Shown here one piece after another: positions 1,013 to 22,273 of a stretch of DNA of 22,273 nt. How positions within the stretch are numbered: the first letter of the stretch is position 1; each line of letters begins with the position of its first letter. The stretch lies in assembly GCA_964473825.1 (NCBI GenBank), contig CAYYQL010000040.1:1-22273 (forward strand), read 5' to 3'. The notes under the pieces were generated by a model. That model ran no database searches and was not told where the DNA came from. It saw only the letters and a list, made by a program, of their open reading frames with translations. Both the position numbers and the translations under genes were made by a program. Origin of the DNA: an uncultured archaeon (GTDB lineage Archaea; Asgardarchaeota; Thorarchaeia; Thorarchaeales; Thorarchaeaceae).

Positions 1013-2452
1013 TTGCTGGTCAAGACAGACAGAAAGGAGCTCATCAGCGTTGGCGTTGATATCGGCTCATCCACATCACATGTGATCTTCAGTCGAATCA
1101 CGCTGGAGAAGGACAGGATGAGCCGCAGTGAGAAGTTTGAGATTGCCGACAGAGAAGTGCTCCATTCGGGCAAGATCCATCTGACGCCGTTCTCAGATCC
1201 CGATACCATCGATTTCGAGCGACTTGAGCACCTCCTCCTAGTGGACTACAAACTAGCTGGCTTCAAGGTTTCCGAGATAGACACGGGGGCAGTCATCGTG
1301 ACAGGAGAAACAGCGAAGAAGCAGAATGCAGCCGAGATAGTCAATGCACTCGCTGGAGAAGCCGGCAGGTTCGTTTCTGCAACAGCTGGCCCGAACTTCG
1401 AGGCCGTACTGGCGGCTCATGGATCAGGATCTGTTTCGAGGTCGGAACGAACGGGGGAGACCGTGATGAACATCGATATTGGTGGCGGGTCATCCAATAT
1501 TGCAATATGCTCACACGGGCGGGTCATCGATACCTCAGCCATAAACGTCGGAGGTCGGCTCGTGGCCTTTGATGAGGATAATGTCATTACAAGACTCGAA
1601 AATACAGGCCGAGCTGTTGCACAGCTCATGGGTCTCAATCTGAAACTAGGAGGAGTCCTCACGGAGAGTGAAAAGCAGCTCCTAGCTGATATTCTAGCAT
1701 CAGCACTTATTGAAGCGATGATAGGAAATACCACGGATCTCGCCGTTAGTCTTCTTATGATGACAGAGCCCCTGAAGGAACTCGAAAGCATTAATGTGGT
1801 GACTCTCTCGGGCGGTGTTGCAGAGTTCATCTATGGTGAAGAGACCCGCAATTTCGGAGACCTTGGTCCACACCTTGCTGCAGCGATTAAGTCTAAGATC
1901 TTATCCAACGGATTCAGACTGGAGAGGCCGGAGCACCGGATACGCGCCACAGTCATCGGCGCAGGTCAGTGTAGTCTGCAGGTGAGCGGCTCAACAACTT
2001 TTCTCTCATCGGGTATCAGCTATCCCCTACGCAACCTGCCCGTTGTCGTTCCGCAGATCCCAAGAGGCAATGGTGGCGCAGATTCAGTCAGAGATGCAAT
2101 TCGTGATGCGTTGATACGGTTTGACCTGCAGGAGGGAGAAGACGATCTCATTCTTGCATTTCAGGACGCTGTTCGCCCGTCATACGAACGACTCACAGAG
2201 TTCTCCAAGGGTGTTGTGCAAGCCCTCCCCAAAACCGTGGACAGTGGGCGACCAATCATGATGTGTTTCGACACCGATGTTGGTAATAGCGTCGGCAATG
2301 TTATGAAGCGCGAGACTGGTATACGGAACGAGATCTTGTCAATCGACGAGGTCCCCCTAAGAGAGGGAGACTTCATTGATATCGGTGAGCCTATCATCGA
2401 GGGTGTAGTAGTTCCAATCGTCGTCAAGACGTTGGTCTTTCAATCGAATTAG
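1013..2452 (+). CDS. eutA: Ethanolamine ammonia-lyase reactivating factor EutA-like (actin-like ATPase fold)
   Basis: Motifs SVGVDIGSSTSH, TGAVIVTGETAKKQNA, FVSATAGPNFE, NIDIGGGSSN, IRATVIGAG and C-terminal GDFIDIGEP...VVPIVVKTLVF. GGTGA RBS at 1001-1005 precedes the TTG start. Confidence 0.9.
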   Translation: MLVKTDRKELISVGVDIGSSTSHVIFSRITLEKDRMSRSEKFEIADREVLHSGKIHLTPFSDPDTIDFERLEHLLLVDYKLAGFKVSEIDTGAVIVTGETAKKQNAAEIVNALAGEAGRFVSATAGPNFEAVLAAHGSGSVSRSERTGETVMNIDIGGGSSNIAICSHGRVIDTSAINVGGRLVAFDEDNVITRLENTGRAVAQLMGLNLKLGGVLTESEKQLLADILASALIEAMIGNTTDLAVSLLMMTEPLKELESINVVTLSGGVAEFIYGEETRNFGDLGPHLAAAIKSKILSNGFRLERPEHRIRATVIGAGQCSLQVSGSTTFLSSGISYPLRNLPVVVPQIPRGNGGADSVRDAIRDALIRFDLQEGEDDLILAFQDAVRPSYERLTEFSKGVVQALPKTVDSGRPIMMCFDTDVGNSVGNVMKRETGIRNEILSIDEVPLREGDFIDIGEPIIEGVVVPIVVKTLVFQSN

Positions 2453-2481: not shown

Positions 2482-3339
2482 GTGAATGAAGTGATTAGAC
2501 CTCTCACAGAGAAGGATGAGGAAGATGTCATAGAGATTGGCCGACAAGTGTGGGGTGGCCACGACTATGTTCCATCAACCTTCCATACTTGGCTTGAGGA
2601 TGAGCTTTCACACCCACAGGCAATCGAGATAGAGGGTACGGTTGTGTGCTTTGCAAACCTGCGAGTGATAGACGATGGACGAACTGCTTGGTTTGAGGGG
2701 CTGAGAACACACCCAGAATGGCGCGGGCAGGGGCTCGCTAGGAGAATAACCGAGCATCTCGCAGTGATTGCAGAGCAATTAGAAGTGGACAGGATACGCT
2801 ATACAACCGCGTCAACCAATGAAGCTTCTCTCAAGATAGCTCACCACATCGGAATGAAAGAACGTTATCGAATGCGGGTCACATGGTTTCATCTTGGGAA
2901 ACTAGAATCCCATCCTTCGTCGGGACTCAAGGGGGTTGGAACAGACAAAGTGATTCAGCTACTCTCAGATTGCCCATCACTCATACCAATGAACACCATC
3001 GTCTATGACTGGAAAGTCCTAGAAGCCAGTCCACAGGGAGTATTGCGCGCGGCCGAGTCCAATCGTTTCTGGTTATATGAAGGGGTAAAGCCATCGCTTT
3101 CACTCGGGAAACAGCGAAACGAAGACGATGGGGTTCTCTGGTGTTTCACAATCTACGCACTACAAGAGGGTGATTTTCTCCAGCATCTGAACATCCATAT
3201 CAAACATGCAAAAGACAAGGGCTATGCTGAGGGTATGGCCACCTACCAGCTGGAATTCTCCCGTGTCTTTTCCGAGCTAATTCCAGATGAGAACAATGAC
3301 CGCGGCAGAACCCTCGTTTGTCTGGACAGAGAGATATAG
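2482..3339 (+). CDS. GNAT family N-acetyltransferase with C-terminal extension
   Basis: Acetyl-CoA motif EGLRTHPEWRGQGLA and N.AS motif (TNEASLKI). Starts 29 nt after eutA. Confidence 0.85.
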   Translation: MNEVIRPLTEKDEEDVIEIGRQVWGGHDYVPSTFHTWLEDELSHPQAIEIEGTVVCFANLRVIDDGRTAWFEGLRTHPEWRGQGLARRITEHLAVIAEQLEVDRIRYTTASTNEASLKIAHHIGMKERYRMRVTWFHLGKLESHPSSGLKGVGTDKVIQLLSDCPSLIPMNTIVYDWKVLEASPQGVLRAAESNRFWLYEGVKPSLSLGKQRNEDDGVLWCFTIYALQEGDFLQHLNIHIKHAKDKGYAEGMATYQLEFSRVFSELIPDENNDRGRTLVCLDREI

Positions 3340-10418: not shown

Positions 10419-13247
10419 TTAGGTGACCTCTTGCTCGATTGCCAGATATCCCTCACTGCCGTTCAACGTGACGGTCTGGCCAGTCTCCAGTAGTTGACAG
10501 GCCTTTCTAACGTTCGTGATTGCTGGAATGCCATACTCCCTTGAAACCACCGCGCCATGAGAGAGGATACCGCCTGTTTCTGTTATGAGTCCTCCAATCC
10601 TCGAGAAGACGGGTGTCCAACCGGGATCTGTTCTGGGGACCACAAGGATCTCACCTGCGCGGACCTGAGATATGTCTGCAACAGAGTTCAAGACACGTAT
10701 GGTACCAGATACTATTCCTTGACTCGCCGGAATCCCGATGAGCCTGCCGGTGGACTCTGGCAGTGGGTCATTGAACTCCCTTGAGCCTTCGAGGAACTTC
10801 GGAGGAGTGATGTTTTCGTAGCGTTTGAACTCGTCATGTCGTTCGCGTGCTAGTTCGCGAATCTCAGGTTTCGATAGAGAGGTAGAACCATCGACTATGC
10901 GACGGATCTCGTTCCTATGGAGAAAGAAGATGTCTATAGATTTGTCAAGATAGTCTTGATTCACCAATCGCTCTCCCAGAATTAGGAAGAGCCTTCGGTT
11001 TCGGGTTATCCACCGATCCAGATTGAACCTCTGATTCTCTCTGAAGACAGTGTAAGTCCGAGCGAAGCTCAGGATGGCCGAGAATAAGAGCCATTTGAAG
11101 CTTCCAAAAGCTTGTTTCTGAAGCTCTCTCTTTACCAGCCTTTCAGCCTGGCCACGTTCAATCTTTATTCTCTTGTCTGTTCGGTTGACAGCAGAGTGTT
11201 GACCACTCACCAAGGCCTTGATGATGTCAAACACATGCTGAGAAGATTCACGCCAGCGAGGGTAGTAGGGTTCTCTAGTGAATCCCCGGTCTCCGAAGTC
11301 GTCAATGAATCCATCGTACGCTTCAGTGAAGATGCGTGATGATTCGCTATCAACCGTCCTGATACGGTCATAAAGAACATCCGAGGGGGTTTCAGATATC
11401 AGTTCTGCTAATTCCGAGTCGTCCCTAGCCAAGCTTGCTAATTCATTCAGACGCTTGTTGGTCTCATTGGTCTTGTGATCTAACTCCGAAACCAAAACTG
11501 GAAACAAAATCGCGGCTGCCCTTTCCCCGAGAAACCTCTTCAGCAGATAATGTGTGATTAGATTCATGCCGATGTTGTGAACGGGAATTCCGTATCTCAC
11601 CAGTCTGAAGTGGCTCATCATGACGCGGTCGAGGTCGTCAGCATGTGCAAGAATCTCCTTCGCGGATGCCGCCTTCTGCAAGCGCTCGAAATCGCGGTCC
11701 AGTTTTTGGCAATATGGAACAAAGACGTTGTCAGTCCAGTCATTGTAGACCGAAGAAGTCTTGGTCATGCCTCCATTGTCGTCGTATAGCATCACTCGAA
11801 TCTCTGCAAGGAGCCTACTCTTGAGGTTGAAGGGCATTCTCTTCATGGTCTCTTTCCCATAGGGGCCGGACCCCTCTGGGAAGTAGTTGAGAAGGTCGTC
11901 TGATCTGAGAAACGGGGGAATTTCATTCTGGACCTTTTTCTTCAGCACTTCTACGTTGAAGTATGCGTGTGCCTTGTACAGCTTGAGCAGCTCTGATGGC
12001 ATGTCTTGGTAGCCCATTATATCATTCAGCTCATCATTAACGATAAACGTGAGCTGGTCGCCAAGAAGATCGAAGAACAAAGGAGTAACATCATCGTTCC
12101 AGTAATCGTCGCTATAACCACGGGTCCAGAGAATCACATCATCACTGCATTGCCTTACTCTCGATGTGGTCACGGGCCTTGATTGTAGAATATGGAGCCT
12201 CTCCGTTTCGTCGATAGCCCACTCAACGTCCTGTGGGTAACCAAACAAGGCCTCTATTGAAGCGCCAACCTCAGCAAGGTGAAGAGCCTGTCCGTCGCTT
12301 AGCGAGGAGTCTTCGCCCCGTTCTCGTGGAAGCTCGATTGTTTTTACACCCTCGAATCCGTCCTCGTTCAGATCTATTATCGTATCCTTCGTTCCAATCT
12401 CTTTGCTCACAAGCGAATAGCCATCCAACTCCTTCGCAACGATGTATCTGTCAGGCACTGCCCTCCCAGAAACTACCGACTCGCCGAGTCCGAAATTTGA
12501 CTCGATCATCATCTCATCGCCATTGTCAGATAGGGGGTTCTTTGTGAACAACACTCCTGCAGAACGAGGTTTGACCATCTTCTGAACTACGACTGCTAGA
12601 GCTGTCCCGTCTTGAGGTATTTCATTGTTGCTGCGGTAGGCCACAGCTCGGCGTGTCCACATTGACGCGAAACACTTCTTCACGGTCTCACAAATTCGTT
12701 CGACGCCTTCTATATTGAGAAATGTGTCGTATTGCCCTGCAAAAGATGCGTCGGGAAGGTCTTCGGCAGTAGCTGAAGACCTAATGGCAACAGGACCACC
12801 TCCTAGACGTTCGTACGCATCACGGATTGCCTCCACCAAACCCTTCGGAAGGTCAACATCATCTATGGCTTGTCTGACCTTGACAGAAGCTTCCTGAAGC
12901 AGACTTTCCTCCCTGCTTGTGGCGTTTTGAAGGCAGCTCCGGACTGCAGCTGAAATGAGTTCTGATGATGTGTGCTCGATATAGCCATCGGTCGTGACTA
13001 CAAACCCATCTGGGACGTCAAAGCCATTTTGGCGGAGGACAGCCAGATTACATGCCTTGCCACCAACTAGGCTGTGATCACGACACTCACTAGCAGCGAT
13101 GTCAATGGTTAGCGGAATCTTGGTTAACTTGTTAACCTCCCTATTAGTCTTCAAGCTATTCCGTGGTACGGCACAATCCCTCCTAAGAGGGTTTCGGCAA
13201 TAGTGAGGAGCTATTTCGACAGAAAGCCAATTGTGTAACAAGATCAT
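10419..13247 (-). CDS. PEP-synthase-like dikinase with rifampin phosphotransferase/PigC architecture (ATP-grasp, helical substrate domain, C-terminal His swivel domain)
   Basis: N-terminal GGKACNL, RSSATAEDLPDASFAGQYDT, QDVEWA and LQSRPVT. C-terminal TDPGWTPVF...GGILSHGAVVSREYGIPA. No pyruvate-binding TIM barrel follows the His domain. Confidence 0.9.
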   Translation of the reverse strand: MILLHNWLSVEIAPHYCRNPLRRDCAVPRNSLKTNREVNKLTKIPLTIDIAASECRDHSLVGGKACNLAVLRQNGFDVPDGFVVTTDGYIEHTSSELISAAVRSCLQNATSREESLLQEASVKVRQAIDDVDLPKGLVEAIRDAYERLGGGPVAIRSSATAEDLPDASFAGQYDTFLNIEGVERICETVKKCFASMWTRRAVAYRSNNEIPQDGTALAVVVQKMVKPRSAGVLFTKNPLSDNGDEMMIESNFGLGESVVSGRAVPDRYIVAKELDGYSLVSKEIGTKDTIIDLNEDGFEGVKTIELPRERGEDSSLSDGQALHLAEVGASIEALFGYPQDVEWAIDETERLHILQSRPVTTSRVRQCSDDVILWTRGYSDDYWNDDVTPLFFDLLGDQLTFIVNDELNDIMGYQDMPSELLKLYKAHAYFNVEVLKKKVQNEIPPFLRSDDLLNYFPEGSGPYGKETMKRMPFNLKSRLLAEIRVMLYDDNGGMTKTSSVYNDWTDNVFVPYCQKLDRDFERLQKAASAKEILAHADDLDRVMMSHFRLVRYGIPVHNIGMNLITHYLLKRFLGERAAAILFPVLVSELDHKTNETNKRLNELASLARDDSELAELISETPSDVLYDRIRTVDSESSRIFTEAYDGFIDDFGDRGFTREPYYPRWRESSQHVFDIIKALVSGQHSAVNRTDKRIKIERGQAERLVKRELQKQAFGSFKWLLFSAILSFARTYTVFRENQRFNLDRWITRNRRLFLILGERLVNQDYLDKSIDIFFLHRNEIRRIVDGSTSLSKPEIRELARERHDEFKRYENITPPKFLEGSREFNDPLPESTGRLIGIPASQGIVSGTIRVLNSVADISQVRAGEILVVPRTDPGWTPVFSRIGGLITETGGILSHGAVVSREYGIPAITNVRKACQLLETGQTVTLNGSEGYLAIEQEVT

Positions 13248-14353
13248 AGAGTGAGGGAGTGGGCTCTCTTGAGAGTTGACACAGCCTCTTCAATGATAAC
13301 GTCAACCAATTCAGAAACATGCGGGATGTCCGATATTCTGCCAGTACACTCTCCCGCGAACATGAGTGCTGTATCCTCCTTCTGATCTAGCAGGTCATCA
13401 AATCCTGATCGTTCCAGTTCAAGAATCTTCTCGTTGGACTCCACCGGTTCTCCGAGATAGAACCTCGGGGCATCCTCCAAGGTCTGTTCGACAATCCTCT
13501 CCGAGCGTGCGTTTCGAAGGAATCTCATGGGCCCAAACAAACCTCGTCCAGCCAATGTCTTCCGTTCCTCACTCTTGACAATCATCTCTTTCCACATAGG
13601 CTCAAAATCGCTCTCCTCTGTGGCGATGAATCTTGTTCCCATCTGAACGCCACATGCTCCATAGCAGAGAGCTGCAGCGAGACTCGCCCCATCACAGAAT
13701 CCTCCAGCTGCAACAACAGGTTTGTCGACTGCTCTGACAACTGCTGGCACCAGAACTGAGGAATGAACAGGATCCCAAGAAATGTGGGCGCCTCCCTCGT
13801 GACCTGAAGCAACGATGATATCTGCTCCTGATTTCTCGGCCTTCTTTGCATGATACACTGAAGGTACTACATGGATCCAGATGAGACCGTGCCGTTTCAC
13901 CTCAGCCCACGGTGCAGGATTCCCTGCAGACGTGATGAGAACGCGCAGCCGCCTCTCGATATCTGAATCGCTTGCTCGTGACTCAATGACCTGCTCGAAG
14001 AACATCTTCGATGCTAGCATGAACTCGGACGCAACAGGCACGTTCACTCCGAACACGGCGCCACTCTTTCTCGTTTCTTGTGCTACTGCTTCGATCGACT
14101 TCCGCAAGAGCTCACGGGGAGGATCCGTTCCAAAGAGTCGCTCGGCATCAACTGGAGCAGCATCAGGAAGAAGACTAGCAGCCATACCAATACTGCTTAT
14201 GACGCCAAGACATCCACTGTTACTGACTGCAATGGCAAGGGACTCCGTCTTATACGGCCCCATGCCTCCCTGTATGATGGGATGGTCGATGTCGAGTAGC
14301 TCGCACAGCTCGGTGCTGATTTTGGCCATGGGATAGAGACGGGGTACTAGCAT
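13244..14353 (-). CDS. Nitronate monooxygenase / FabK-type enoyl-ACP reductase family FMN oxidoreductase (likely start ATG 14329)
   Basis: Motifs HPIIQGGM, AVSNSGCLG, FGVN, GHEGGAH, PVVAAGG..DG and GVQMGTRFIAT.ES. A TTAAAT box lies about 25 nt upstream of ATG 14329. ATGA overlap with the next gene. Confidence 0.88.
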   Translation of the reverse strand: MLVPRLYPMAKISTELCELLDIDHPIIQGGMGPYKTESLAIAVSNSGCLGVISSIGMAASLLPDAAPVDAERLFGTDPPRELLRKSIEAVAQETRKSGAVFGVNVPVASEFMLASKMFFEQVIESRASDSDIERRLRVLITSAGNPAPWAEVKRHGLIWIHVVPSVYHAKKAEKSGADIIVASGHEGGAHISWDPVHSSVLVPAVVRAVDKPVVAAGGFCDGASLAAALCYGACGVQMGTRFIATEESDFEPMWKEMIVKSEERKTLAGRGLFGPMRFLRNARSERIVEQTLEDAPRFYLGEPVESNEKILELERSGFDDLLDQKEDTALMFAGECTGRISDIPHVSELVDVIIEEAVSTLKRAHSLTL

Positions 14354-17458: not shown

Positions 17459-17642
17459 GATGTGACTGGATCGAGAATGTCTTCGCTCCATACTGCTGAG
17501 AGAGGCAGAAAATGCAGTCAAGGGAGCCAAGAAACTGCCTGTAGTCCTGGAGCTCTGAGAGCGCGGAATATTCAGGTGTGGTCGTGAGATTCTTCAGTCA
17601 GGCTGTGATTGGAGATGCTAGAATCTTATCATCACCTTGGAA

Positions 17643-17672
17643 CCCTTGCGGGGCGTGTTTAACCCGACTAAC
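17643..17672. repeat. Dispersed direct repeat, copy A (26/30 identical to 22075-22104)
   Basis: CCCTTGCGGGGCGTGTttAACCCGaCTaAC versus CCCTTGCGGGGCGTGTccAACCCGgCTcAC; the first 16 nt match exactly. Confidence 0.7.
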
Positions 17673-21465: not shown

Positions 21466-21827
21466 TTAACACTTGTTCCGAACAGCTCTACATCGATCGC
21501 TCGTTCAAGTGTCAGCTTGTCAAACCTAGAGTTCAGGCCGTATATGTCCAGTCTAAGAAGGCTGTTTCCAAAGAATACTGTGCAACGCGATTGTTCCCAA
21601 AGGGCTGCCTTCATATCCTGGGCAGACGCAGCAAAACCCTGAGAGTTCAAGTAGTCAACGAATGAGTGGATGTCATCCTCTTTGATACTCGCGATGATGT
21701 CGATATCGACTGTCGTGCGGGGAACGCCGTGGAACATCACTGCAACGCCCCCCACGACAACTTAATCAATTCCCCTCCTTTCGAAGTATCGAGAAACAGA
21801 TTGCAGAACCTCACGAAACTCGTCCAT
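21402..21827 (-). pseudogene. Nucleotidyltransferase (DUF6036/AbiEii-like) pseudogene
   Basis: From ATG 21827: MDEFREVLQSVSRYFERRGID*VVVGGVAVMFHGVPRTTVDIDII. The in-frame TAA at 21762-21764 sits where Tyr is expected (YxxxGGxA..HG..R.T.DID motif). The C-terminus is lost after KLGS at about 21458. Confidence 0.8.
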
Positions 21828-21981
21828 GATATCTGTCACCTGCGATTCGAAGAGCCAACGCAGATAGTTCAAGCCCCATGATTAGAGTTTCGAGACCAGT
21901 ATAACGCCTTGCACGTATTGCGGTACGTATCTGATCAAGATCTCTGCGGAGCTTCACTTGAGCGGAAACTGAGCAGGTCAT
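21811..21981 (-). CDS. Small hypothetical protein, possible antitoxin/partner of the nucleotidyltransferase
   Basis: 56-aa ORF MTCSVSAQVKLRRDLDQIRTAIRARRYTGLETLIMGLELSALALRIAGDRYHGRVS overlaps the NTase start by 17 nt. It is below the ORF-track cutoff and its start is uncertain. Confidence 0.5.
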   Translation of the reverse strand: MTCSVSAQVKLRRDLDQIRTAIRARRYTGLETLIMGLELSALALRIAGDRYHGRVS

Positions 21982-22063
21982 TCTCCATTCGCATCCACTC
22001 TATTCAGATTCTTCTCATATATCCTACTGTGCATCTTGGGCAAAACAAAGAATCCAAGGAGTA

Positions 22064-22138
22064 TGACCGGCGCGCCCTTGCGGGGCGTGTCCAACCCGGC
22101 TCACATCTTTACGCCGGGCCTTCATCCGCCGCCAGTCA
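22064..22138 (-). promoter_or_regulatory. Eukaryote-like SECIS element (Asgard-type)
   Basis: Minus strand GGCGG-AUGA-A-GGCCCGGC-GU-AAA-GAUGUGA-GCCGGGUU-G-GA-C-ACGCC. It has an AUGA/GA core, an 8-bp upper stem and an apical AAA 11 nt after AUGA. The outer helix is UGACUGGCG/CGCCGGUCA. G-U pairs occur only on the minus strand. Confidence 0.85.
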
Positions 22139-22273
22139 CTAACTCCTTCCGGACTATCTCGCGACCCTCATCGTCCACAACGACGAAATGAGCGCCGCAG
22201 GATAGTCAGCAGTCATAGCACCTGACAACCATCTCGAGGAGGTTGAGCAGGCCTTCATCTATTTCATCTGTCA
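22122..22273 (-). CDS. vhuU: Selenocysteine-containing [NiFeSe]-hydrogenase active-site peptide VhuU-like (or the C-terminus of a large subunit); 5' end at the window edge
   Basis: Manual translation (x)TDEIDEGLLNLLEMVVRCYDC-U-LSCGAHFVVVDDEGREIVRKELVTGGG*. TGA at 22206-22208 occupies the first Cys of the hydrogenase DPCxxCxxH motif. Stop TGA at 22122-22124. The strand enters the window as ..TG ACA, compatible with ATG at 22274. Confidence 0.88.

What the first reader, a model, noticed from the sequence alone, without database searches (positions are those of the whole stretch)
22064..22138. Eukaryote-type SECIS whose AUGA core contains the gene's stop codon
Seen: ...GGC GGC GGA UGA AGGCCCGGC GU AAA GAUGUGA GCCGGGUU GGA C. 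The terminating UGA (22122-22124) is the UGA of the AUGA kink-turn core, and the last codons (VTGGG) form the 5' strand of the lower helices. The core lies 84 nt after the Sec codon. Known: AUGA-N11/12-AA..GA is the eukaryotic SECIS consensus, and similar 3'-UTR elements are reported for Lokiarchaeota, unlike the GAA/A methanogen SECIS. Inference: one UGA is recoded and a second terminates inside the recoding element, so a terminating ribosome must unfold the SECIS. This is a compact and possibly self-limiting design, tolerated because the encoded tail is a cleavable extension.
Basis: partly seen in the sequence, partly recalled or inferred. Interest (0 to 1): 0.8.

Follow-up and report, generated by a model that had tools for sequence, protein, structure and literature searches.

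The report
Asgard SECIS containing its gene's stop
This is a genuine selenocysteine-insertion RNA hairpin at the end of a small hydrogenase gene (vhuU) of a Thorarchaeota archaeon, and its conserved AUGA core really does contain the gene's UGA stop codon, but exactly this arrangement was already described for Asgard archaea in 2016 and 2024.

Summary
On the minus strand the window ends in vhuU, the 50-codon Sec-containing piece of a split [NiFeSe] hydrogenase. It reads ...RCYDC-U-LSCGAH plus a 21-residue tail. The Sec UGA is at 22208-22206. The stop UGA at 22124-22122 is the UGA of an AUGA core.

The genome is a Thorarchaeota MAG with tRNA-Sec, a PSTK-like gene, SepSecS, aSelB and SelD.

In a scan of public genomes, 66 of 66 Sec-type vhuU genes from Thor-, Atabey- and Loki-type Asgard archaea end in UGA, and 64 end in AUGA. 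The spacing from the Sec codon is 84 nt (96 nt in nine). Four Cys-type homologues have no such structure.

Three helices covary: 92.6% of cells are paired against 28-45% in slid controls, with 110 double changes against 14-29.

The main point is not new. Mariotti et al. 2016 state it for Lokiarchaeum VhuU.1, and Huang et al. 2024 generalise it and describe the Thorarchaeial frhA/vhuU loop and lower stem.

Possible additions are a covarying side hairpin with a YGCAA loop, which makes the base a three-way junction, and repeated copies of tail plus SECIS downstream of vhuU. This scan had already noted the second copy on another contig of this genome.

The parts
22125..22273 (-). vhuU coding sequence (sense codons 2-50). 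The ATG lies just off the window on contig C56, which overlaps the window end by 55 identical bases. It encodes the Sec-containing C-terminal piece of a split [NiFeSe] hydrogenase large subunit.
   Evidence: Translation. The join to C56 and the upstream 438-aa NiFeSe_Hases ORF. Matches to the C-termini of solved Mvh/Frh large subunits and to a 27-aa VhuU chain, 9sfi_M.
22206..22208 (-). In-frame UGA read as selenocysteine (YDC-U-LSCGAH), at the Ni-ligand position that is Cys in homologues.
   Evidence: The position is TGT or TGC in the Cys-type homologues L127, L130, L131 and L062.
22142..22148 (-). 5' strand of the outer helix (AAGGAGU, within the K-E-L codons). It pairs with 22056-22062.
   Evidence: MFE fold. 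Relatives keep GGAAGGAG...CUCCUUCC, with compensated variants such as GAGAGCU/AGCUCUC in L097 and L105.
22130..22139 (-). 5' strand of helix I, the lower stem. It is coding (V-T-G-G codons) and pairs with 22063-22072.
   Evidence: RNAalifold and pair counts. Four of 7 pairs show double changes in the MAFFT alignment and 7 of 7 in the model-fitted one.
22122..22125 (-). AUGA of the SECIS core. The A is the last base of the final Gly codon, and the UGA (22124-22122) is the stop codon of vhuU.
   Evidence: These columns are invariant in 57 Thorarchaeal sequences. Of 66 Sec-type loci, 64 have ATGA, 1 GTGA and 1 TTGA.
22113..22121 (-). 5' strand of helix II, the upper stem (AGGCCCGGC).
   Evidence: Eight pairs, 7 of them with double changes, 94% of cells paired.
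22101..22112 (-). Apical loop GUAAAGAUGUGA. The unpaired AAA begins 11 nt after AUGA.
   Evidence: the AA is invariant. It matches the G[U/G]AAA loop reported for most Thorarchaeial frhA genes (PMC11227280).
22092..22100 (-). 3' strand of helix II (GCCGGGUUG). The last G faces an A next to the core.
22090..22091 (-). GA of the core, the partner of the GA in AUGA (putative tandem sheared G.A pairs of a kink-turn).
   Evidence: G, A and the following C are invariant or nearly so. The non-Watson-Crick geometry is inferred by analogy and was not tested.
22074..22086 (-). Side hairpin GCCC-CGCAA-GGGC, lying between the core GA and the 3' strand of helix I. It makes the base of the element a three-way junction.
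   Evidence: RNAalifold helix 3, with 96.5% of cells paired. The stem changes with compensation in Atabeyarchaeia (GGCG-UGCAA-CGCC) and in Loki-type loci, while the GCA of the loop is kept.
22063..22072 (-). 3' strand of helix I (3' UTR).
   Evidence: The second copy in this genome differs here by C-to-U and A-to-G, and both changes keep the pairing.
22056..22062 (-). 3' strand of the outer helix (ACUCCUU). It is followed by a U-rich tract (about 22038-22052) that could serve as an archaeal terminator; that role is inference only.

Best explanation
The element is the Asgard-type, eukaryote-like SECIS of vhuU in a Thorarchaeota genome.

Proposed mechanism:
- While a ribosome sits on the Sec codon (22208-22206), the structure downstream is still folded. 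Its outermost pair begins about 57 nt after that codon.
- The structure has an outer helix and helix I, an AUGA/GA kink-turn core, a 9-position helix II, an apical loop starting GUAAA, and a small side hairpin.
- Probably through a kink-turn-binding protein together with aSelB-GTP-Sec-tRNA(Sec), it directs Sec insertion at that UGA.
- The ribosome then translates the 27 remaining codons. The last nine or so are the 5' strands of the outer helix and helix I.
- On reaching the second UGA the ribosome has melted the helices and the core, and its mRNA channel covers helix II. No SECIS exists for that codon, so it is read as a stop.
- The tail after His is most likely removed by the hydrogenase maturation protease, as in other [NiFe] large subunits.

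Once stop and core overlap, the arrangement locks itself. Changing UGA to UAA or UAG would destroy the G of the sheared G.A pair. That alone explains the near-universal conservation without any extra regulatory role.

Shown: the sequence, the fold, the covariation, the conservation of the overlap, its absence in Cys forms, and the Sec machinery. Inferred: the protein partners, the order of unfolding, and cleavage of the tail.
For: Sequence and frame.

Fold: -49.1 kcal/mol, z = -3.7.

Gene context:
- The upstream gene is a 438-aa NiFeSe_Hases ORF in both copies.
- VhuU matches the C-termini of solved Mvh/Frh large subunits and a 27-aa VhuU chain that ends just after the His.

Sec machinery: tRNA-Sec(UCA) lies next to a PSTK-like gene on C35. 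SepSecS and aSelB are adjacent on C3. A NifS-SelD fusion is on C8.

Taxonomy: the closest named records are Thorarchaeota MAGs.

Conservation of the overlap:
- 66 of 66 Sec-type vhuU loci end in TGA, 64 of them as ATGA.
- The UGA-to-UGA spacing is 84 nt in 57 loci and 96 nt in 9.
- In this genome, TGA ends only 40% of long ORFs.

Covariation on an unfitted MAFFT alignment of 57 sequences:
- 92.6% of cells are paired, against 28-45% when partners are slid.
- 110 cells carry double changes, against 14-29 in the slid controls.
- 0 of 500 shuffles reach the observed score.

On the model-fitted alignment of 73 matches, all 19 pairs show double changes.

Specificity:
- The model hits only the two vhuU 3' ends in the genome.
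- It finds nothing at Cys-type homologues L062, L127, L130 and L131.
- A non-homologous candidate selenoprotein gene on C37 has the same layout: stop inside AUGA, a GUAAAG loop, a side hairpin and a closing helix.

[quoted passage not shown] Huang 2024 reports the same overlap and the Thorarchaeial loop and stem features.
Against: - There is no experimental evidence for Sec insertion, for the kink-turn geometry or for any protein partner in any Asgard archaeon.
- The Rfam eukaryotic SECIS models give no hit even at E up to 10, as the literature also reports for SECISearch3.
- The relatives are not independent, so the counts overstate the support.
- The 5' strands of helix I and the outer helix are coding. 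Part of their conservation is therefore protein-level, since the tail resembles that of FrhA.
- The fixed 84-nt spacing is also seen in Cys-type homologues (81-87 nt), so it reflects protein length and not an RNA rule.
- The PSTK-like gene scores below the NCBIfam cut-off (132.6 against 290.5 bits).
Confidence: 0.88

Rival explanations
1. The overlap of stop and core is an adaptive throttle, the first reader's 'self-limiting' idea. Each terminating ribosome destroys the SECIS. A following ribosome at the Sec codon, only 28 codons behind, then finds no signal and aborts or waits. Output of VhuU would thus be capped or coupled to refolding.
For: The geometry makes unfolding at termination unavoidable. 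The overlap is kept in 66 of 66 Sec-type loci across three Asgard classes. A second, unrelated gene in the genome uses it too.
Against: - Conservation is explained more simply by lock-in, because the stop cannot mutate without breaking the core.
- L043 has an earlier TAA and L044 a TAA 19 nt before AUGA, and both keep the SECIS. The overlap is therefore dispensable.
- In the C37 gene the Sec codon lies 729 nt upstream, so no common spacing exists for a throttle.
- No expression data could be obtained.
Confidence: 0.12
2. The conserved structure is mainly something other than a SECIS. It could be a transcript-end or stability hairpin, or the attachment site of integrating DNA, with the AUGA...GA and AAA resemblance incidental.
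For: - Extra copies of the tail plus structure lie downstream of vhuU in several genomes: L086 three times, also L106, L077, L109 and L119.
- A partial copy lies at 17642-17672 of this window.
- A U-rich tract follows the element.
Against: - The element is present in every Sec-type vhuU and absent from Cys-type homologues.
- AUGA, GA and the loop AA are invariant while the stems covary.
- The same core and loop occur behind an unrelated gene that has an in-frame UGA.
- A role as a recombination target is compatible with SECIS function and does not replace it.
Confidence: 0.04
3. The UGA inside AUGA is itself sometimes read as Sec, or read through, giving a longer VhuU.
For: In this window a second in-frame UGA follows six codons later.
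Against: The downstream frame is not conserved in relatives, and its length and sequence vary with the stem covariation. The codon sits inside the structure that would have to act on it.
Confidence: 0.02

Closest known systems
lokiSECIS of VhuU.1 in Lokiarchaeum (Mariotti et al. 2016, Mol Biol Evol, PMC4989117)
   Same: The same gene family, the same AUGA core that doubles as the UGA stop, a 9-position upper stem and an A-rich apical loop, placed immediately at the gene end. The Loki-type loci fetched here align to the model built from Thorarchaeal sequences.
   Different: - Loki VhuU has AUGA..AA, whereas this element has AUGA..GA.
- The loop here is 12 nt and starts GUAAA; the Loki loop is 11 nt and starts AAAAA.
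- The sequence is GC-rich (64%) against about 30% in Loki.
Type I eSECIS-like elements of frhA/vhuU in Thorarchaeia (Huang, Xiao, Zhang 2024, ISME J, PMC11227280)
   Same: The AUGA_GA core, the G[U/G]AAA loop start and the [U/C]GG_C[C/U][A/G] lower-stem pairs all match this sequence (UGG/CCG). That paper also notes that UGA stops overlap AUGA.
   Different: The text of that paper treats the region between core and lower stem as an internal loop. Here its 3' side folds into a covarying hairpin, and a further outer helix reaches into the K-E-L codons. I could not see their figures or supplement.
Eukaryotic type I SECIS (Rfam SECIS_1)
   Same: AUGA, then about 11 nt, then unpaired AA(A) in the apical loop, then GA. 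Helix I, internal loop, quartet, helix II. It acts at a distance on an upstream UGA.
   Different: - Helix II is shorter.
- The element overlaps the coding sequence and contains the stop.
- It has a side hairpin.
- No SBP2 is known in Asgard archaea.
- No Rfam hit was obtained.
Methanococcales/Methanopyrus archaeal SECIS (GAA_A bulge type)
   Same: It lies in the 3' UTR close to the stop of vhuU/fruA-type genes. The Sec machinery is the same (PSTK, SepSecS, aSelB).
   Different: The core motif is different (GAA/A bulge, a 3-bp GC upper stem). It has no AUGA/GA quartet and no overlap with the stop.

Membership tests
Asgard eukaryote-like SECIS (lokiSECIS / eSECIS-like type I) | Lies at the 3' end of a gene with an in-frame UGA at a position that is Cys in homologues | tested here: met
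   YDC-U-LSCGAH against YDCCLSC in Cys forms and DPCLSC in solved Mvh/Frh structures
Asgard eukaryote-like SECIS (lokiSECIS / eSECIS-like type I) | 5'-AUGA ... [G/A]A-3' core flanking the upper stem | tested here: met
   AUGA at 22125-22122 and GA at 22091-22090. Both are invariant or nearly so in 57 sequences. The non-Watson-Crick geometry itself cannot be tested here.
Asgard eukaryote-like SECIS (lokiSECIS / eSECIS-like type I) | Upper stem of 7-15 bp (9 in lokiSECIS) with an apical loop of 8-20 nt that starts A-rich | tested here: met
   Eight standard pairs plus one A.G, and a 12-nt loop GUAAAGAUGUGA. Seven of 8 pairs have double changes.
Asgard eukaryote-like SECIS (lokiSECIS / eSECIS-like type I) | Conserved among orthologous selenoprotein genes and absent from Cys-type orthologues | tested here: met
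   The model matched 65 of 66 Sec-type loci at E <= 0.05; L118 reached exactly 0.05 in the smaller search and L125 was never matched. It found nothing at L062, L127, L130 or L131.
Asgard eukaryote-like SECIS (lokiSECIS / eSECIS-like type I) | The genome encodes tRNA-Sec, PSTK, SepSecS, aSelB and SelD | tested here: met
   PSTK is only PSTK-like (E = 2e-38, below the curated cut-off), but it lies about 430 nt from tRNA-Sec.
Asgard eukaryote-like SECIS (lokiSECIS / eSECIS-like type I) | Directs Sec insertion at the upstream UGA | not testable with these tools
   No experiment exists for any Asgard SECIS.
Eukaryotic SECIS (Rfam SECIS_1 and relatives) | Scores against the curated covariance models | tested here: not met
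   No SECIS family appears among the matches at E up to 10 in 21700-22273. The element works like a eukaryotic SECIS by motif but is not a member by model.
VhuU (separate Sec-containing C-terminal peptide of an F420-non-reducing [NiFeSe] hydrogenase) | Short separate ORF directly after a large-subunit gene that lacks its C-terminus, carrying the D-x-U-x-x-C-x-x-H Ni-ligand motif | tested here: met
   A 50-codon ORF lies 13-16 nt after a 438-aa NiFeSe_Hases ORF, in two copies. It aligns to the 27-aa VhuU chain 9sfi_M. The motif is D-C-U, not D-P-U.

The most novel reading that the evidence does not exclude
The vhuU SECIS of Thor-, Atabey- and Loki-type Asgard archaea is not a simple two-helix eukaryote-like hairpin. 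It is a three-way junction.

A covarying side hairpin with a conserved YGCAA-like loop sits between the core GA and the 3' strand of the lower stem. A further outer helix reaches into the coding sequence. An unrelated selenoprotein gene in this genome also has a side hairpin at the same place.

This extra arm could be the docking site for an Asgard-specific SECIS factor, since no SBP2 is known there. One candidate is the uncharacterised 'Sel_Asgard' protein encoded next to SepSecS.

The whole tail-plus-SECIS module also appears to serve as a recombination target, with spare copies left behind.
Probability: 0.25. Interest if true: 0.55.

Novelty: already known. Interest (0 to 1): 0.25.

Why it matters
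Asgard SECIS elements are the proposed link between the archaeal and eukaryotic ways of encoding selenocysteine. This locus is a clean, well-supported example.

It shows that one UGA can be recoded and another, 84 nt on and inside the recoding signal, can terminate. That illustrates the minimal-distance rule also seen in eukaryotes. All of this has been said in print.

This analysis adds three things:
- a quantified picture (66 of 66 loci, with natural Cys-type controls and two lineages that separate stop and core);
- a simple lock-in explanation for the conservation;
- a side hairpin that published text does not mention and that might guide the search for the missing Asgard SECIS-binding protein.

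Tried and rejected
- Rfam at a permissive threshold gave no SECIS hit, only weak C/D-box snoRNA-like noise. One such match (sR30, E = 5.5) simply reflects the GAUGA/UGA boxes of the kink-turn.
- Pfam gave nothing for the 50-aa peptide alone.
- The strict motif scan gave one extra site, C55:7270, with no ORF upstream. I treat it as chance.
- I considered the fixed 84-nt spacing as an RNA-level rule and dropped it. Cys-type homologues have 81-87 nt, so it reflects protein length.
- I checked whether VhuD and SelD in this genome are selenoproteins that could supply further SECIS examples. All VhuD copies and SelD are Cys forms.
- The first call to the genome search failed and was repeated. One fold call had a mistyped reference.
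- No complex prediction was run. No specific protein partner is claimed.

Full report
**What is there**

The window is a whole contig (C40) of a 3.27-Mb, 96%-complete genome. The finding lies on the minus strand at the contig end.

Read in frame, 22271-22122 gives TDEIDEGLLNLLEMVVRCYDC-U-LSCGAHFVVVDDEGREIVRKELVTGGG-stop.
- The start ATG and the preceding gene lie on contig C56. Its first 55 bases are identical to the window's last 55.
- That preceding gene is a 438-aa [NiFe]-hydrogenase large subunit without its C-terminus (Pfam NiFeSe_Hases).
- The small ORF supplies the missing C-terminal Ni-ligand motif. It aligns to the C-termini of solved Mvh and Frh large subunits and to a 27-residue VhuU chain (9sfi_M) that ends just after the His.
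- This is therefore vhuU, with selenocysteine encoded at 22208-22206.
- A second copy, 95% identical, lies on C19 behind its own vhuD-G-A genes.

- AUGA is at 22125-22122, and its UGA is the stop codon.
- Upper stem: AGGCCCGGC pairs with GCCGGGUUG.
- Apical loop: GUAAAGAUGUGA.
- GA is at 22091-22090.
- Lower stem: 22130-22139 (codons V-T-G-G) pairs with 22063-22072.

Two more elements appear.
- An outer helix, 22142-22148 with 22056-22062, reaches into the K-E-L codons.
- A small hairpin, GCCC-CGCAA-GGGC at 22074-22086, lies between the core GA and the 3' strand of the lower stem.

The 101-nt stretch folds at -49.1 kcal/mol (z = -3.7). The distance from the Sec UGA to the stop UGA is 84 nt.

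**Organism and machinery**

The nearest named records are Thorarchaeota MAGs; the same genus includes isolate TEKIR_12S. The genome carries:
- tRNA-Sec(UCA) about 430 nt from a PSTK-like gene on C35;
- SepSecS and aSelB side by side on C3;
- a NifS-SelD fusion with Cys at the active site.

**Comparative evidence**

Forty relatives and a scan of 185,579 species genomes gave about 70 vhuU loci.
- All 66 Sec-type loci end in TGA. Sixty-four read ATGA, one GTGA and one TTGA.
- The spacing is 84 nt in 57 loci and 96 nt in nine.
- In this genome TGA ends only 40% of long ORFs, and about a third of those follow an A.
- The loci come from Thorarchaeota, Atabeyarchaeia and Loki-type 'Promethearchaeota'.

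On a plain MAFFT alignment of 57 Thorarchaeal 3' ends, RNAalifold recovers three helices: lower stem, upper stem and side hairpin. Twelve of 19 pairs show changes on both sides. The pair counts are:
- 92.6% of cells paired, against 28-45% when partners are slid by one to three columns;
- 110 cells with double changes, against 14-29 in the slid controls;
- 0 of 500 shuffles reaching the observed score.

A covariance model built from this alignment behaves specifically.
- It finds only the two vhuU ends in the whole genome, at E about 1e-20.
- It finds the homologous elements in Atabey- and Loki-type loci.
- It finds nothing at four Cys-type homologues (L062, L127, L130, L131).
- On the model-fitted alignment all 19 pairs show double changes. 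That alignment leans towards the structure.

AUGA, the GA and the loop AA are invariant or nearly so, while the stems vary.

**Exceptions that inform the mechanism**

- L043 has a TAA 39 nt after the Sec codon but keeps the AUGA element at the usual place.
- L044 ends in TAA 19 nt before its AUGA.

The SECIS therefore works without containing the stop.

The tail after His is conserved as protein in Cys forms and resembles the FrhA extension. Its length, and hence the 84-nt spacing, belongs to the protein family.

The simplest account of the near-universal overlap is lock-in. With the stop inside AUGA, a change to UAA or UAG would remove the G of the core.

**How it most likely works**

1. The element is folded while the ribosome decodes the first UGA, and it promotes Sec insertion there.
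2. Translation of the last nine or so codons then unwinds the outer and lower helices and the core.
3. The second UGA is therefore met without a SECIS and terminates.

This is inference from geometry. It is the same argument that Mariotti et al. make for a minimal-distance rule. Partners such as L7Ae-type kink-turn binders and aSelB are assumed and not shown. The 'self-limiting' idea is not excluded, but nothing here supports it.

**Comparison with what is known**

- Mariotti et al. [quoted passage not shown]
- Huang et al. 2024 repeat that UGA stops often overlap AUGA. For Thorarchaeial frhA/vhuU they report the AUGA_GA core, the G[U/G]AAA loop and the [U/C]GG_C[C/U][A/G] lower-stem pairs. 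All three fit this sequence.
- The central claim is therefore already known, and this locus is one more member.
- Eukaryotic Rfam models do not match, as the literature also found with SECISearch3.

**What may be new**

- The text of the two papers mentions no hairpin or junction at the base of the element. I could not see the figures.
- Here the side hairpin covaries. Its stem is A/G-CCC in Thorarchaeota, GGCG in one Atabeyarchaeial locus and CUCU in two Thorarchaeal loci. The GCA of its loop is kept from Thor- to Loki-type sequences.
- An unrelated candidate selenoprotein gene in this genome (C37) has its stop in AUGA, a GUAAAG loop, a side hairpin and a closing helix in the same order.

**Side observation**

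Full copies of 'last 45-50 coding nt plus SECIS', without the Sec codon, recur downstream of vhuU.
- They occur in L086 (three copies that differ by compensatory changes) and, more weakly, in L106, L077, L109 and L119.
- This window has a partial copy at 17642-17672.
- C19 has a truncated tail at its end.

**Verdict**

The novelty is low because the arrangement is already published.

Noticed in passing
window 17642-17672 (minus strand), against 22075-22104: A partial copy of the 3' half of the SECIS: the 3' strand of helix II and the CGCAA side hairpin, about 26 of 30 bases identical. It lacks AUGA and has AA in place of the core GA. It lies 4.4 kb downstream of vhuU, beyond two transporter genes and a decayed nucleotidyltransferase-like ORF. 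It looks like a leftover tail after an insertion at the vhuU 3' end.
   Followed up: partly
L086:1618-1723, 2443-2548, 3009-3113; also L106:2708-2811, L077:2786-2890, L109:2507-2602, L119:2645-2743: In other Thorarchaeota, complete extra copies of 'vhuU tail plus SECIS' without the Sec codon lie in the same orientation downstream of vhuU. The three copies in L086 differ by compensatory stem changes, as if they came from different donors. This suggests that the module is a recombination or attachment site.
   Followed up: partly
G000 contig C19:44184-44262 (contig end): A third, 5'-truncated vhuU tail (…CGAHFVVVDDEGREIVRKE) with an unrelated upstream sequence, about 7.7 kb downstream of the C19 vhuU copy.
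   Followed up: no
G000 contig C37:12248 (locus L143:949-1030): A non-homologous gene with an in-frame UGA in a C-x-x-U motif (…ECMSUGKG…). It also ends in CGA-UGA, so its stop lies inside an AUGA core. A GUAAAG loop, a GA, a side hairpin (AAAGGG/CCCUUU) and a closing helix (GAAGAU/AUCUUC) follow. Here the Sec codon is 729 nt upstream.
   Followed up: partly
window 22209-22220 (minus strand) and all Asgard vhuU loci: The Ni-ligand motif is R-C-Y-D-C-U, with Cys where Methanococcales and bacterial [NiFeSe] enzymes have Pro (D-P-U), plus a further Cys three residues earlier. The motif is invariant across about 70 Asgard loci.
   Followed up: no
L043 (G032:C49) and L044 (G030:C3): Two lineages in which stop and core are separate. 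One has a TAA only 13 codons after Sec with the AUGA element kept at the ancestral place. The other has a TAA 19 nt before AUGA.
   Followed up: partly
G000 contig C8:31000-35200 (minus strand): SelD is fused to an N-terminal NifS-like cysteine desulfurase / selenocysteine lyase domain (749-aa open frame). It has Cys, not Sec, at the active-site loop (GLGCACK).
   Followed up: no
window 1013-2452 and 10419-14353: Ordinary metabolic genes elsewhere in the window: an EutA-like reactivase, a PEP-utilising enzyme (PPDK_N) next to a nitronate-monooxygenase-family gene, a GH3 glycosidase, a CitMHS/TrkA-C transporter and an amino-acid permease. Nothing ties them to the SECIS.
   Followed up: no
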